Source: an uncultured Gammaproteobacteria bacterium
Lineage (GTDB): Bacteria; Patescibacteriota; Patescibacteriia; 2-01-FULL-39-33
Assembly: GCA_964361645.1 (NCBI GenBank)
Contig: CAYIBK010000003.1
Coordinates: 19,021-53,336, forward strand
Reading direction: 5' to 3'
Length of the DNA: 34,316 nucleotides
This document shows, piece by piece, positions 23,289-26,226 of this stretch. Position numbers and translations under genes: made by a program. Every line of letters begins with the position of its first letter. Position 1 is the first letter of the stretch. A model generated the notes under the pieces. The model searched no databases. It had not been told where the DNA came from and was given only the letters and a program-made list of their open reading frames with translations.

Positions 23289-24620
23289 ATGATGAAAAAA
23301 ACAGCCAAGAAGGCTTATAAATCAGCCCTGTCTGCGCGAGCAGGTAAGAAAAAAGTTTCCCCCAAAAGAGCTGAAAAGAAAACTACCAGGAAAAAAATTA
23401 GCTTTACCAGTAAGAAAAAAACTCAGTCGAGAAAATCGGCTATTTCAAAAAAGAAAGCTAAACATCTCAAAGTTCCAAAAGTAGAAGTTAAACCAAACGA
23501 AGAAGCGATTTTAAACCTCATTAAAAAAGGTAAATCGCGTAGTTTTGTTACAGAACAGGAAATCATGATTTTATTTCCGGAATTAGAAGAATATGTTGAT
23601 AGGTACGAAGAATTACTTGAGGATTTATCGGCTACCAGTGTTAGTATTGTGGAAAGTGGCGGATTTTTTGGCGGCACGATGTTGAAAAGTCCTTTTGCCA
23701 AGGCAGTTGAGAAACCGGTAAAAACTCGCAAAGTTCAAAGTCGAACTATGGAGAAATTAAAAGAACTCTCTCAAGTAGATATTAATTTAGGAGATATTTC
23801 CACTGATTCCATTCAGATGTATTTAAGGGAAATTGGCCGCGTGCCACTCTTAAAATCGGATGAAGAAATTATGTTGGCCAAAGAAATTGAAAGAGGCAAT
23901 ATGGAAGCCAAGCATCAATTAATTAAAGCCAATTTAAGACTAGTGGTTTCTATCGCTAAAAGATTCACCGGCAAGAGTTTGTCGCTTTTGGATTTGATTC
24001 AGGAAGGCAATATAGGATTGTTTCGCGCCGTTGATAAATTTGATTATCATAAGGGCTATAAATTTTCTACCTACGCTACTTGGTGGATTAGGCAGGCCAT
24101 CACTAGATCTTTGGCTGATCAATCCCGTACTATCCGTATCCCCGTTCATATGGTGGAAAATATCAATAAATTCCAGCAAGTGGAAAGAAGATTGGTTCAG
24201 GATTTAGGCCGAGAACCAATGCCAGAAGAAATTGCAGCTGAAATGGGTGAAGATATAGTAAAAATAAATCATATCATTAAAATTTCTCAAGAAACTATAT
24301 CGCTGGGCACACCCGTGGGTGATGATAGCGATGATAGTGTTTTGGAAGATTTTATTGAAGATCAAAAAACCATTACCCCAGACAGAGTGGCGGCATTGCA
24401 GATTTTACGTGATTATGTCCAAGAGGTTATTTCCGAATTAACTCCTAGAGAACAGAAAGTTTTGGAGATGAGATTTGGCCTCAAGGATGGAGTTTCTCAT
24501 ACCCTAGAAGAGGTGGGCCAAGAGTTTGATGTTACTCGTGAACGTATCAGACAGATTGAAGCCAAATCATTAGAAAAGATAGAAAAAATTAAAGGAGTTG
24601 AGAAACTTAGGGATTTTTAA
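23289..24620 (+). CDS. rpoD: RNA polymerase primary sigma factor
   Basis: [41 protein letters not shown] and [10 protein letters not shown]. Lys-rich N-terminus. Follows dnaG. Confidence 0.98.
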
Positions 24621-24632
24621 TATAATTTGAAT

Positions 24633-24953
24633 ATGGATAATTCAAATATTACAATAAGTGATTTAGCCAACAATATTGATGATTTAGCAGTTTCTGTTAA
24701 GTCTGGTTTTGAACAGATAGATAAACGATTTGAACAAGTAGATAAACGATTTGAAGATGTTTACGGTAGACTTGATAGTATTGATTCCAAATTATCATTT
24801 ATCCAAAAAGAAATAGAAGATATTAAAGTAAAATTAAGTGCTTTAGAAAATAGAACCATTGAAGATGGTAATATTTTAGGTGGTGATATATTGGATTTAA
24901 AAAACAGAGTTTCATTATTGGAAAAGAAAATAGAGCGATTATCGCATACTTAA
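24633..24953 (+). CDS. Coiled-coil protein with heptad repeats (FEQIDKR-FEQVDKR-FE)
   Basis: 21-bp tandem repeat at 24708-24755. ATG 24633 preferred over TTG 24627. Confidence 0.75.
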   Translation: MDNSNITISDLANNIDDLAVSVKSGFEQIDKRFEQVDKRFEDVYGRLDSIDSKLSFIQKEIEDIKVKLSALENRTIEDGNILGGDILDLKNRVSLLEKKIERLSHT

Positions 24954-24958
24954 TATTA

Positions 24959-24987
24959 TTGACATTAGCGCTATTTTTTGATAATAT
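24959..24987 (+). promoter_or_regulatory. Sigma70 promoter of tRNA-Asn
   Basis: TTGACA (24959-24964), 17 nt, TAATAT with an upstream TG. Confidence 0.65.
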
Positions 24988-25064
24988 ATTTTAAGTGAGT
25001 CAATATTGGCTCGCTTTTAAAATCAGATATTCCGTGATAGCTCAATGGTAGAGCAACCGGCTGT

Positions 25065-25641
25065 GAACATGTGGTGTCTAAATCATGGTATAATTCATAT
25101 ATGAAAGACACCAGAAAATATGCCGATCGTCGCAAATATTTAATTGATGCCGTTTCTAAGCGAAGAAAAGAGTTAAGAAAAAAATCAATTGAATATAAGG
25201 GCGGTAAATGTATTATCTGTGGCTACAATAAGTGCAATCAAGTTTTAGAATTCCATCATTTTAACCCAAAAGTAAAAGACTTTAGTATTTCCCAAAAGGG
25301 TTATACTAGATCATGGGAAAAAGTTAAAAAAGAATTGGATAAATGTATCTTGGTTTGCGCTAATTGTCACAGAGAAATTCATGCTGGCACAACGCAGCTT
25401 CCGAAAGAAATTTCGGAATGAAAATCGGGTGAATTCAGGGAAACCTTTAAAATGGTGATCCTGAGCGAAGTCTCACAGAAATGTGAGAAACGTGCAGAGA
25501 CTATCCTTTATGGAGTAGTCCTATTTAATTAATAGGCCGAAGCGCCCGATACCTAACATCATTGTCATTCCAACGTAAGTAGGAATTCAGTGGTTATGGT
25601 AATGATATAGTCCACGCCTTAGTGAAAACTAGGAATAAGTG
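25065..25641 (+). ncRNA. Group I intron (577 nt) at tRNA position 35/36
   Basis: Exon ends in U and intron ends in G. IGS GCAGC 25394-25398, P2 25399-25418, P3 25424-31/25543-50, P4 25434-39/25460-65, R GCAGAGACTA 25494-25503, S GATATAGTCC 25604-25613, P9 with GAAA loop 25618-25633. Confidence 0.93.
25101..25421 (+). CDS. Intron-encoded HNH endonuclease (putative homing endonuclease)
   Basis: CIICG...LEFHH...CILVCANCHREIH. ATG 25101 preferred over GTG 25071. Confidence 0.88.
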   Translation: MKDTRKYADRRKYLIDAVSKRRKELRKKSIEYKGGKCIICGYNKCNQVLEFHHFNPKVKDFSISQKGYTRSWEKVKKELDKCILVCANCHREIHAGTTQLPKEISE

Positions 25642-26039
25642 TAACCGGTAGGTTGCTGGTTCGAATCCAGCTCACGGAGCAGAGTAGAACAAGCAGGGTC
25701 AAAAACCCTGTTTTGTTTTGTATTTACAGTGGTTTTAGTGAGTTCGAAAGTGTTATTTAACCTAGGTATCCATTCTTGCAAAAATTCAAAGGCTAAAGTG
25801 TAGTTTGGCCTTATTTTTCCGTTATTTAAGTTAAGGTTCGAAAATATATAACTCAAAAGCAATCTTCTATCTTCCTCGGTGGCTTTTGGGCTTTGATATA
25901 TCTCCTGAGCCTTACAGGCCAATTCATGAATTGCAAATCCTGCCTCATAGTACTTAGTTTTGTCTTCGCTTAATTTTTTTAGTCCATTTATGGCCAGTTC
26001 TTTTTCGTCCACAGGATTGAATAAAAATTCACTGCCCAT
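25629..26039 (-). pseudogene. Probable C-terminal remnant of a large serine recombinase reading into the tRNA antisense
   Basis: AQEIY...EDRRLLLSYIFSNLNL resembles the C-terminal tail of tRNA-targeting recombinases (from recall, not searched). The end, LLRELDSNQQP, is tRNA antisense. No catalytic domain, and an in-frame stop lies 9 codons upstream of the ATG. Confidence 0.6.
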
Positions 26040-26173
26040 ATCTCCCCAGTTTATTATGGGGTTTTATTTTTACTTTAAATTTGGTTATCATTTAAAATAG
26101 CTAAAATTACTAAAAAATCATGTTCTAGACAAATATTAGTAGTAAATCATAAAAGGTAATATAGTCTATATGG

Positions 26174-26226
26174 TTGACAAAAATTGACAAAAAAAAATTG
26201 ACAAAATATCCATAATATACTAAAAT
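26174..26226 (+). promoter_or_regulatory. Promoter with three tandem TTGACA hexamers
   Basis: TTGACA at 26174, 26184 and 26198. The third is spaced 17 nt from TAAAAT (26221-26226). Confidence 0.7.

What the first reader, a model, noticed from the sequence alone, without database searches (positions are those of the whole stretch)
25031..25679. tRNA-Asn split within the anticodon (35/36) by a group I intron carrying an HNH gene in loop L1
Seen: both exons and a full ribozyme core. The exon end GCUGU pairs with GCAGC (25394-25398, U.G at the splice site) about 330 nt downstream, so most of the HNH ORF sits in the P1 loop and its last codons double as IGS and P2. Extra hairpins between P7 and P3 (25504-25536) suggest subgroup IA. 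Known: classic bacterial tRNA group I introns are in Leu, fMet, Ile and Arg at other positions and seldom carry ORFs. Standard tRNA finders can miss such genes. I recall 35/36 Asn/Asp introns being reported in Patescibacteria, so the site itself may not be new; the endonuclease-bearing form is the rarer part. The U1-A72 pair fits GatCAB recognition of tRNA-Asn.
Basis: partly seen in the sequence, partly recalled or inferred. Interest (0 to 1): 0.85.

Follow-up and report, generated by a model that had tools for sequence, protein, structure and literature searches.

The report
Mobile self-splicing intron splitting tRNA-Asn gene

Summary
Exons 25031-25064 and 25642-25679 join into tRNA-Asn(GUU). 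Between anticodon positions 35 and 36 lies a 577-nt group I intron, 25065-25641 (Rfam 86.2 bits, cut-off 50). A 106-codon HNH gene (25101-25421) fills the P1 loop, and its last codons overlap the internal guide and P2.

Relatives fix the junction: intron-less tRNA-Asn genes read CTGT|TAA, and ORF-less introns join the first intron bases directly to the guide sequence. On 73 intron cores the helices covary (84.5% paired against 64.7% shuffled; score 0.474 against 0.153; 0 of 500 shuffles reach it).

It is not rare. In 201 related genomes, 30 carry this intron, 14 of them with the HNH gene inside. A scan of one genome per species found 336 HNH relatives. By my checks, 79 of the best 80 lie in or beside a tRNA-Asn gene split at the same site, including in phyla outside Patescibacteria. 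Phage relatives sit beside phage tRNA-Asn genes.

A 2025 preprint on a novel tRNA group I intron site in Patescibacteria exists. I saw only its title. Verdict: a real, probably mobile intron, and a new member of a known kind.

The parts
24959..24987 (+). Promoter-like site for the tRNA gene: TTGACA, 17-nt spacer, TAATAT with TG before it; 43 nt before the tRNA 5' end
   Evidence: Consensus scan, 10 of 12 matches, the best of 12 sites found in the region. Function is inferred.
25031..25064 (+). 5' exon of tRNA-Asn(GUU): acceptor 5' strand, D arm, anticodon stem 5' strand and loop bases C32 U33 G34 U35
   Evidence: The script join is read by ARAGORN as tRNA-Asn(gtt). It is 92-97% identical to the 5' halves of intron-less tRNA-Asn genes in relatives.
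25065..25641 (+). Group I intron, 577 nt, starting with G and ending with the terminal G (25641)
   Evidence: Rfam RF00028 at 86.2 bits. The same boundaries occur in the 19 intron-bearing loci (18 relatives plus the window's own copy) and in 62 of 80 further loci.
25061..25065 (+). P1 5' strand: C32 U33 G34 U35 plus intron base G+1; the 5' splice site follows U35 (U.G pair)
   Evidence: Pairs with 25393-25397. The +1 pair covaries across 80 introns.
25085..25093 (+). TGGTATAAT, an extended -10-like element 7 nt before the HNH start codon; possible internal promoter for a near-leaderless HNH mRNA
   Evidence: A TAnnnT lies 4-12 nt before the ATG in 39 of 54 distinct introns, 12 of them with TG before it. 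No chance control was run in this AT-rich sequence, so this is weak and inferred.
25101..25421 (+). HNH endonuclease gene, 106 codons plus stop, lying in the P1 loop; the last ~9 codons overlap the P1 3' strand and P2
   Evidence: ORF list. PHROG 2255 'HNH endonuclease', E 2.8e-31. The CxxC..HH..N..CxxCH..H residues are at least 95% conserved in 53 distinct relatives.
25393..25398 (+). P1 3' strand (internal guide sequence) CGCAGC; G25394 pairs with U35
   Evidence: GCAGC is invariant in 73 cores.
25399..25418 (+). P2 hairpin with GAAA loop
   Evidence: All 8 pairs change on both sides across 72 distinct cores; the inner 6 pairs are nearly always paired. Also present in the minimum-energy fold.
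25424..25493 (+). P3 5' strand (25424-25431), P4 (25435-39 with 25460-64), P5 (25443-45 with 25454-56), P6 (25465-67 with 25491-93), P6a (25471-76 with 25483-88)
   Evidence: P4 99% paired, P6 97%, P6a 93%, each with changes on both sides. Minimum-energy fold.
25499..25503 (+). P7 5' strand GACUA, pairing with 25608-25612 (pseudoknot with P3)
   Evidence: 99.7% paired. Four of 5 pairs never vary, so they say nothing for or against the pairing.
25504..25536 (+). P7.1 (25504-06 with 25512-14) and P7.2 (25520-25 with 25531-36), the insert between P7 and P3'
   Evidence: P7.2 86% paired, all 6 pairs with changes on both sides; P7.1 65-70% paired. The insert is missing in a second core type among relatives.
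25543..25633 (+). P3 3' strand (25543-50), P8 (25551-57 with 25593-600), P7 3' strand (25608-12), P9 (25617-23 with 25628-33)
   Evidence: P3 83% paired, P8 68% (poorly aligned), P9 77%. Minimum-energy fold.
25642..25679 (+). 3' exon of tRNA-Asn: U36 A37 A38, anticodon stem 3' strand, variable loop, T arm, acceptor 3' strand, discriminator G; no encoded CCA
25691..25713 (+). Terminator-like hairpin followed by a T run, 12 nt after the tRNA
   Evidence: Consensus scan: 9 pairs; 5 sites found against 0.7 expected from shuffles.

Best explanation

The gene appears to be transcribed as a single unit from its own promoter. In the precursor, loop bases C32-U35 and the first intron base pair with the guide sequence CGCAG about 330 nt downstream. 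This forms P1, with the U35.G wobble at the splice site. The core (P3-P9, with P2 and a P7.1/P7.2 insert of the IA kind) then binds guanosine, cuts after U35 and joins U35 to U36, restoring the loop CUGUUAA. Splicing has to work. No other tRNA-Asn gene is in the assembly, and the organism seems to make Asn on this tRNA through GatCAB.

The HNH protein is made from the P1 loop, possibly from an internal -10 element. It most likely nicks or cuts intron-less tRNA-Asn genes near the anticodon, so that repair copies the intron in. The target is nearly the same in all bacteria. That would explain why the same element occurs at the same site in several phyla, and why its relatives sit beside tRNA-Asn genes in phages.

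Shown here: the anatomy, the junction, covariation of the helices, the patchy distribution, and intact HNH genes. Inferred: splicing, the endonuclease's target and homing.
For: Group I intron. Rfam scores it at 86.2 bits against a cut-off of 50. The core folds at z = -5.49. On 72 distinct cores, 84.5% of cells are paired against 64.7% shuffled, and the covariation score is 0.474 against 0.153. No shuffle of 500 reaches either value, and slid controls score at most 0.134.

Junction. Removing 25065-25641 gives tRNA-Asn(gtt). Fourteen intron-less relatives read CTGT|TAA at that point. The first intron base is A, C or T in other copies, which leaves no room to slide the junction.

P1 and ORF in L1. 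ORF-less introns of 217-309 nt at the same site lack exactly the ORF stretch. The +1 pair covaries.

Essential. No other tRNA-Asn was found by ARAGORN (41 tRNAs) or by blastn of the exons. GatB is present and no AsnRS-level hit was found.

Mobile. The same-genus genomes G001 and G002 have the gene without the intron. In 201 relatives, 30 copies are intron-bearing and 26 intron-less (14 by loci, 12 by abutting rows); the rest were not classified.

HNH intact and conserved. Of 69 long introns, 56 have an ATG-started ORF of 100-136 aa, and the catalytic and zinc residues are at least 95% conserved.

HNH tied to tRNA-Asn. By my checks, 79 of the 80 best relatives lie in or beside a tRNA-Asn gene split at this site: 62 by a strict test and 17 by eye. 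Three of three phage relatives inspected lie next to a tRNA-Asn gene.
Against: No RNA data could be found, so splicing and the ligated junction are not observed. No P10 pairing between the 3' exon and the guide sequence is evident by eye. P1 is short, at 5 secure pairs, and the guide bases beyond GCAG do not follow changes at exon positions 30-31. Pfam's HNH models score below their cut-offs (16.2 against 21.4; 19 against 23). Whether the enzyme still cuts, what it cuts and where were not tested. The assembly is 93.7% complete, so a second tRNA-Asn gene in the missing part cannot be excluded. The census comes from hits to a query that contained the HNH gene, so the share of ORF-bearing copies is biased upward.
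Confidence: 0.88

Rival explanations
1. The intron still splices but the HNH protein no longer drives homing. It is either a decaying passenger or has been kept as a splicing helper (maturase), and the intron now passes on vertically in this lineage.
For: All tRNA-Asn targets within one genome are already occupied, so homing gives no benefit inside the cell. Some relatives carry broken copies: L004 and L006 show two overlapping frames in tblastn, and 13 of 69 long introns lack an ATG-started ORF of 100 aa or more. The ORF end lies inside P1 and P2, so protein and ribozyme are physically coupled.
Against: The window's ORF is intact and keeps every conserved catalytic and zinc residue. The intron is missing from two same-genus genomes. 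The HNH family is scattered over several phyla and over phages, which fits ongoing transfer better than vertical descent.
Confidence: 0.2
2. The interrupted gene is dead. The insertion inactivated this copy, and the working tRNA-Asn lies in the unassembled part of the genome.
For: The assembly is 93.7% complete in 49 contigs. Other expected tRNAs, such as Phe and Ile(GAT), are also missing from the ARAGORN list.
Against: Both exons are intact. They keep all four stems and are 92-97% identical to the halves of intron-less genes in relatives. The intron core keeps its helices through compensatory changes. The gene has its own promoter-like and terminator-like sites. The same split gene is kept in at least 30 related genomes, and acceptor stems covary between the two exons.
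Confidence: 0.03
3. The splice junction lies one base away, so the product is a tRNA with another anticodon (GUG for His, or GGU for Thr, as ARAGORN proposes when introns are allowed).
For: Shifting the cut by one base still gives a cloverleaf.
Against: The shifted junctions put G or another base before the 5' splice site, and U before the 3' splice site, against the group I rule. Intron-less relatives read CTGT|TAA. The genome already has tRNA-His(gtg) and three tRNA-Thr genes.
Confidence: 0.01

Closest known systems
Group I introns at a 'novel insertion site' in tRNA genes of Patescibacteria (Nakagawa, Amikura, Omae, Suzuki; bioRxiv 10.1101/2025.07.03.662931)
   Same: Going by its title, the same kind of element in the same group of bacteria.
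   Different: Unknown. I saw only the title, as a reference-list entry in PMC12641178; the preprint is not held. I cannot tell whether its new site is Asn 35/36 or the Phe 33/34 site that I also found in relatives. Nor can I tell whether it covers HNH-bearing copies, other phyla or phages.
Classic bacterial tRNA group I introns: tRNA-Leu(UAA) of cyanobacteria, tRNA-fMet, tRNA-Ile(CAU) of Azoarcus, tRNA-Arg(CCU)
   Same: [quoted passage not shown] Passages of PMC8450103 name fMet and Ile2 as cases that tRNAscan-SE does not detect.
   Different: A different tRNA and a different position (35/36). The core here has P2 and P7.1/P7.2, whereas the Azoarcus and Synechococcus pre-tRNA introns are called IC3 in a reference title of PMC3984707. 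The exact positions of the classic introns are recalled, not checked.
Synechocystis tRNA-fMet intron with its endonuclease (Bonocora and Shub 2001)
   Same: [quoted passage not shown]
   Different: fMet rather than Asn. As I recall, that enzyme is not of the HNH family. Here the enzyme is HNH and its target is untested.
[quoted passage not shown]
   Same: An HNH gene inside a group I intron. The P7.1/P7.2 helices are among the features used to class introns (PMC3984707 passage). The window's HNH has phage relatives in 465 records.
   Different: The phage introns sit in protein-coding genes. The Bastille relative of this HNH is not I-BasI: it is a free-standing gene in the tRNA cluster. Subgroup labels of the phage introns are recalled.
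Collaborative (trans) homing: a free-standing endonuclease plus an ORF-less intron at the enzyme's target site (cyanophage psbA with F-CphI; T4 mobE with I-TevIII)
   Same: In 9 relatives an intact or broken HNH gene lies just outside a tRNA-Asn gene that holds an ORF-less intron at 35/36 (L006, L008, L017, L018, L067, L073, L086, L109, L117). This is the arrangement described in passages of PMC3984707.
   Different: In the window itself the HNH gene is already inside the intron, the composite state. That the free-standing enzymes cut the intron insertion site is inferred, not shown.
T4 SegB, a free-standing homing endonuclease in the phage tRNA gene cluster
   Same: A homing endonuclease gene among phage tRNA genes (abstract of PMC2330249 in the listing), like the phage relatives of this HNH.
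   Different: SegB is of the GIY-YIG family and is not tied to tRNA-Asn.

Membership tests
Group I intron (Rfam RF00028) | Match to the covariance model above the curated score | tested here: met
   86.2 bits against 50 over the whole model, positions 1-253; 87.1 bits in the genome search.
Group I intron (Rfam RF00028) | P1 formed by the 5' exon end and an internal guide sequence, with U.G at the 5' splice site | tested here: met
   Bases C32-U35 plus G+1 pair with CGCAG at 25393-25397, with U35.G25394. The +1 pair appears in three Watson-Crick forms across 80 introns. ORF-less relatives close this hairpin with a short loop.
Group I intron (Rfam RF00028) | Terminal G before the 3' splice site | tested here: met
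   The intron ends ..AAGUG at 25641. All 62 loci passing the strict test end in G. The test did not require this, and the last five intron bases are printed.
Group I intron (Rfam RF00028) | Conserved core helices P3-P9, with P7 crossing P3 | tested here: met
   Covariation on 72 distinct cores; P7 is invariant. The minimum-energy fold gives P2-P6, P7.2, P8 and P9 independently.
Group I intron (Rfam RF00028) | Guanosine-dependent self-splicing | not testable with these tools
   No RNA run was listed for this sequence. An in vitro assay is needed.
Subgroup IA of group I introns | P7.1 and P7.2 hairpins between P7 and the 3' strand of P3, and a P2 helix | tested here: met
   P2 is at 25399-25418. 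P7.2 is 86% paired with compensatory changes; P7.1 is weaker at 65-70%. That these helices mark IA is partly from a passage of PMC3984707 and partly recalled.
Subgroup IA of group I introns | Formal assignment by a subgroup-specific model or database | not testable with these tools
   Rfam has a single group I model. A second core type without the insert occupies the same site in relatives (L007, L016, L017, L018, L020).
tRNA-Asn(GUU) | Cloverleaf with anticodon GUU once the intron is removed | tested here: met
   ARAGORN calls the script join tRNA-Asn(gtt). The exons match intron-less tRNA-Asn genes of relatives.
tRNA-Asn(GUU) | Charging and use as tRNA-Asn (here through Asp-tRNA-Asn and GatCAB) | tested here: inconclusive
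   U1-A72 and discriminator G are present. GatB is over its cut-off and no AsnRS-level hit was found. Charging itself cannot be tested here.
HNH homing endonuclease | HNH catalytic motif with its zinc-binding cysteines | tested here: met
   PHROG 2255 'HNH endonuclease', E 2.8e-31. The best solved relative is the HNH part of a group II intron maturase, E 2.8e-5. C37, C40, H52, H53, N88, C89, H90 and H94 (my numbering, read off the motif CxxC..HH..CANCH..H) are at least 95% conserved.
HNH homing endonuclease | Pfam HNH model above its curated cut-off | tested here: not met
   PF01844 scores 16.2 against 21.4; PF21368 scores 19 against 23. The PHROG profiles and the conserved residues carry the assignment.
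HNH homing endonuclease | Patchy presence among close relatives, at one conserved site | tested here: met
   Absent from same-genus G001 and G002. Present in 30 of the 56 classified relatives, always at CTGT|TAA.
HNH homing endonuclease | Site-specific cleavage of the intron-less allele, followed by gene conversion | not testable with these tools
   A bench assay is needed.

The most novel reading that the evidence does not exclude
The window shows one state of a three-state homing system for tRNA-Asn that spans several phyla and is linked to phages. One HNH family appears to be specific for the anticodon arm of tRNA-Asn genes. It occurs free-standing beside tRNA-Asn genes in phage tRNA clusters. 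It occurs free-standing beside bacterial tRNA-Asn genes that an ORF-less intron at 35/36 would protect. And it occurs embedded in the P1 loop of that intron, as here. Together these would be natural snapshots of how a mobile group I intron is assembled by collaborative homing, with phages as likely carriers between phyla. The reading also needs none of this to be described already in the 2025 preprint, which I could not read.
Probability: 0.35. Interest if true: 0.65.

Novelty: new member of a known kind. Interest (0 to 1): 0.45.

Why it matters
It matters for annotation. ARAGORN and the Rfam tRNA model both miss this gene, so genomes that carry the intron look as if they lack tRNA-Asn. That can distort estimates of tRNA sets and of decoding capacity. 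The scan found hundreds of such species, including chromosome-scale assemblies labelled Acidobacteriota and 'delta proteobacterium'.

It matters for biology. A cell that appears to depend on a ribozyme to make its only tRNA-Asn is a clear case of a selfish element becoming indispensable. Here that tRNA also seems to be the scaffold on which asparagine is made.

It matters for evolution. Free-standing, intron-adjacent and intron-embedded forms of one endonuclease family occur around one target. [quoted passage not shown] The enzyme could also be a compact nuclease with a defined target that is conserved across bacteria.

Tried and rejected
RNA evidence. The look-up of sequencing runs listed no RNA holder: 20 rows, all DNA contigs, most labelled groundwater metagenome. 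I laid contigs of four DNA runs on 24500-26200. Joints that skip 577 nt (25064 to 25642) and about 352-356 nt (25064/25067 to 25420/25421) appear. Their sides are under 30 letters and lie on the tRNA only, so they most likely come from other organisms' tRNA-Asn genes. I draw nothing from them about this strain.

P10. I looked by eye for pairing between the 3' exon start (UAA) and the bases 5' of the guide sequence and found none.

Extending P1 into the anticodon stem. Guide bases +5 and +6 (mostly CU or CC) do not follow changes at exon positions 30-31. I therefore count only 5 secure pairs.

My first way of locating the guide sequence, a P3 motif, failed for 35 loci. I replaced it with a test for GCAG followed by a hairpin. 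That test still mis-picked 5 loci (L035, L039, L052, L071, L077) and found none in L014. I dropped those six, together with the duplicates L032 and L100, before the alignment, leaving 73 of 81.

HNH tree. It has 61 rows and 111 columns and is poorly resolved. Free-standing copies are scattered (5 changes), but starred branches do not rule out a single origin. I use it only to say that nothing is shown about order or direction.

Internal promoter. The pattern was counted without a chance control in AT-rich sequence, so I keep it as a weak idea.

Phage loci. No group I intron is present in the three phage loci inspected, so the phage copies are free-standing. The short stretch after the Bastille HNH stop codon, which reads like the anticodon-loop-to-3'-end part of a tRNA-Asn gene, was judged by eye only. 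The second 'tRNA-Asn' annotated in that record is found by neither ARAGORN nor Rfam.

Off-by-one slips. One search used exon end 25065; one search corrected it. One search translated the ORF one base out of frame; one search corrected it. Results (join) and 28 are not used.

Literature. Searches found no accessible paper on a group I intron in bacterial tRNA-Asn. PMC11270868, on rRNA insertions in CPR bacteria, mentions neither tRNA nor HNH. The preprint that probably matters most could not be read.

Full report
WHAT IS THERE

The window is part of a 1.03-Mb assembly of 49 contigs, 35% G+C and 93.7% complete. Named records with the closest relatives of the element come mostly from Patescibacteria. 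The best is a MAG titled Candidatus Buchananbacteria, at 81% HNH identity. The host is therefore most likely a member of that group.

At 25031-25679 the sequence reads as follows. First comes a 34-nt 5' half of a tRNA ending ..GGCTGT. Then comes 577 nt that starts with G and ends ..AAGTG. Last comes a 38-nt 3' half starting TAACCGG and ending with the acceptor strand and a discriminator G.

ARAGORN with default settings and the Rfam tRNA model see nothing here. Rfam's group I model matches 25331-25634 at 86.2 bits against a cut-off of 50. This is the only group I match in the genome.

THE TRNA AND THE JUNCTION

Removing 25065-25641 in a script gives a cloverleaf that ARAGORN calls tRNA-Asn(gtt). 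Shifting the cut by one base gives His or Thr anticodons, but with the wrong bases at the intron ends.

Relatives settle the matter. A BLAST of the locus against 201 related genomes hit 84 of them. Fourteen fetched loci hold an uninterrupted tRNA-Asn gene reading CTGT|TAA at exactly this point. Among them are two genomes of the same genus, G001 and G002. Twelve more genomes show abutting half-matches in the rows. Thirty genomes, the window's included, hold an insert of 217-626 nt at the same point. Acceptor stems change on both sides between the two exons across loci, so the halves belong together.

No second tRNA-Asn was found in the assembly, by ARAGORN (41 tRNAs) or by blastn with the exons. 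GatB is present at 524 bits. The best AsnRS-model hits reach 121 and 114 bits against a cut-off of 342.6. The cell therefore seems to make Asn-tRNA by the indirect route on this very tRNA. Its role in GatCAB recognition is recalled, not tested.

THE RIBOZYME

P1 is formed by loop bases C32-U35 and intron base +1 pairing with CGCAG at 25393-25397, with U35.G25394 at the splice site. Three lines of evidence support this.

- ORF-less introns in relatives run from the first 5-20 intron bases straight into ..CGCAGC.., so the ORF is an insertion in the P1 loop.
- GCAGC is invariant in 73 cores.
- The pair between intron base +1 and the base 5' of GCAG is G-C in 50, A-U in 16, G.U in 6, C-G in 2 and unpaired in 6 of 80 introns. 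Those 80 include two duplicate records and five mis-picked guides.

Beyond these five pairs, the guide does not track changes at exon positions 30-31.

I aligned 73 cores and wrote the helices from the window's sequence. On that alignment, 84.5% of cells pair against 64.7% after shuffling. The covariation score is 0.474 against 0.153. No shuffle of 500 reaches either value, and slid partners score at most 0.134. P2, P3, P4, P6, P6a, P7.2 and P9 all show changes on both sides. P7 is invariant, so it says nothing either way. P7.1 and P8 are weaker, partly because the alignment is poor there.

An energy fold of the core alone recovers P2-P6a, P7.2, P8 and P9, at z = -5.49.

I agree as far as these helices go, but no subgroup classifier was available. 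A second core type without this insert sits at the same site in some relatives (L007, L016, L017, L018, L020).

THE ORF

The conserved start is ATG 25101 and the stop is 25419-25421. The product has 106 residues. It matches phage HNH endonuclease families: PHROG 2255 at E 2.8e-31. The best solved relative is the HNH part of a group II intron maturase. Pfam's HNH models fall just below their cut-offs.

Of 69 long introns examined, 56 have an ATG-started ORF of 100-136 residues, giving 53 distinct proteins. The two CxxC pairs, the HH pair, the N and the last two H residues are at least 95% conserved.

Many Patescibacteria copies have a TGnTATAAT-like element 6-9 nt before the ATG. In the window it lies at 25085-25093. 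This could be an internal promoter for a nearly leaderless message. I ran no chance control, so it stays an idea.

The tRNA gene itself has a promoter-like site at 24959-24987 and a terminator-like hairpin at 25691-25713.

HOW COMMON IT IS

The element is not rare. Of the 30 intron-bearing tRNA-Asn genes in the 201-genome sample:

- 14 have the HNH gene in L1, one of them with a frame break;
- 5 have an ORF-less intron with an HNH gene just outside the tRNA (L006, L008, L017, L018, L117);
- 11 have an ORF-less intron and no HNH gene in the fetched flank.

These shares are biased, because the query contained the ORF.

A pattern scan of one genome per species (185,579 species) confirmed 336 relatives of the HNH and kept the best 80. 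A strict test found a tRNA-Asn split at CTGT|TAA around or beside the HNH gene in 62 of the 80. In four of those 62 the intron is ORF-less and the HNH gene lies outside it. By eye, 17 of the other 18 show the same split gene but fail the test through a stem mismatch or a contig end. One, L108, is a degenerate copy next to an intact intron-less gene.

The record titles include many Patescibacteria lineages. They also include Omnitrophota, Nitrospira and Nitrospiraceae, Acidobacteriota, Bacteroidota, a 'delta proteobacterium', Syntrophaceae, Elusimicrobia, Limisphaerales and Planctomycetia. Two of these records are chromosomes of 2.9 and 5.5 Mb, far too large for Patescibacteria, so the spread beyond that group is not just a binning error. 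Several bins titled 'uncultured Gammaproteobacteria' look mislabelled, because their tRNA genes match Patescibacteria copies.

PHAGES

The HNH has relatives in 465 phage records. I inspected three.

- In Bacillus phage Bastille the gene lies just after a tRNA-Asn gene in the tRNA cluster. By eye, a short stretch that reads like the 3' part of a tRNA-Asn gene, from the anticodon loop onward, follows it.
- In Bacteroides phage DAC15 an unannotated tRNA with a CTGTTAA loop sits directly before the gene.
- In Aeromonas phage 4_4572 a tRNA-Asn gene lies between two HNH genes.

None of the three loci holds a group I intron.

MECHANISM

The best-supported account is a self-splicing and probably still mobile intron. 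The ribozyme restores the only tRNA-Asn found. The HNH enzyme cuts or nicks intron-less tRNA-Asn genes near the anticodon, and repair copies the intron in.

The link between this HNH family and tRNA-Asn genes in three settings (phage clusters, beside ORF-less introns, and inside L1) fits the collaborative-homing route to composite mobile introns described in PMC3984707 (passages). The protein tree is too poorly resolved to give an order of events.

Splicing, the enzyme's target and homing are inferred. No RNA data were available.

NOVELTY

The accessible literature names Leu, fMet, Ile and Arg tRNA introns. It says tRNAscan-SE does not detect group I introns (PMC8450103 passages; PMC3984707 passages). 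Six searches found no accessible paper on a bacterial tRNA-Asn group I intron.

[quoted passage not shown] The site is therefore probably already reported. I file the window's element as a new member of a known kind.

What may go beyond the preprint is the HNH family's tie to tRNA-Asn, its spread to other phyla and phages, and the free-standing arrangements. I could not check this.

VERDICT

Interest is 0.45.

Noticed in passing
L023:1438-1753 (G180), also L137, L138, L141, L147, L149, L150, L156: A second tRNA intron site occurs in this lineage. tRNA-Phe(GAA) genes are split between U33 and G34 by group I introns of about 219-254 nt. ARAGORN accepts the script joins as tRNA-Phe(gaa) in 8 loci. 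Several of these genomes have an intron-less tRNA-Asn. The window's own genome has no detected tRNA-Phe and no second group I intron.
   Followed up: partly
Relatives of G000: Group I introns are very common in this class. Of 150 genomes, 71 have an RF00028 match at E <= 0.001, 49 of them over the cut-off, and some genomes have up to 6 matches. Loci L143, L146, L148, L152, L158, L160 and L163 gave no tRNA join and were not placed; they may be rRNA introns.
   Followed up: no
L112:1161-1990 (Bacillus phage Bastille), L113:1334-1782 (Bacteroides phage DAC15), L114:847-1701 (Aeromonas phage 4_4572): Phage relatives of the HNH lie in tRNA clusters next to tRNA-Asn genes. The DAC15 record lacks an annotation for a tRNA with a CTGTTAA loop just before the HNH gene. 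In Bastille, a stretch right after the HNH stop codon reads like the 3' part of a tRNA-Asn gene (by eye).
   Followed up: partly
L017, L018, L117, L067, L073, L086 (HNH upstream, same strand); L109 (downstream, same strand); L006, L008 (downstream, opposite strand): Free-standing HNH genes of the same family lie beside tRNA-Asn genes that hold an ORF-less intron at 35/36. In L067, L086 and L017 the HNH reading frame runs a few bases into the tRNA 5' end.
   Followed up: partly
L108 (a Saccharibacteria-titled record): A broken-looking 5' tRNA-like piece and an HNH gene are followed by an intact intron-less tRNA-Asn gene and a further partial repeat of its 3' part. This may be the remains of an intron loss or of a failed homing event.
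   Followed up: no
L014 (G012), intron of 408 nt; L015 (G019): ORF-less tRNA-Asn introns are enlarged by G+C-rich inserts (runs such as GGAGGGGG and CCCCTCC) in the P5 and P7.1 regions. No guide sequence was found in L014 by my hairpin test.
   Followed up: no
window 25629-26039 (-): A 136-codon ORF on the opposite strand overlaps the 3' end of the intron and the whole 3' exon. It has no Pfam family (best E 0.073). It is probably not a gene, or it starts further in.
   Followed up: no
G000 genome: ARAGORN finds 41 tRNAs but none for Asn, Phe or Ile(GAT), and for Pro only an AGG anticodon. Contig C2 holds a run of tRNA genes at 25525-26078 (Cys, Pro-AGG, Leu-TAA, Arg-TCT) that duplicates isoacceptors found elsewhere in the genome. 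This could be a mobile or phage-derived tRNA cluster.
   Followed up: no
L034, L007, L033: HNH proteins from introns with the two different core types group together with good support (97/90). This hints that the ORF has moved between core types, or that the cores change quickly.
   Followed up: no
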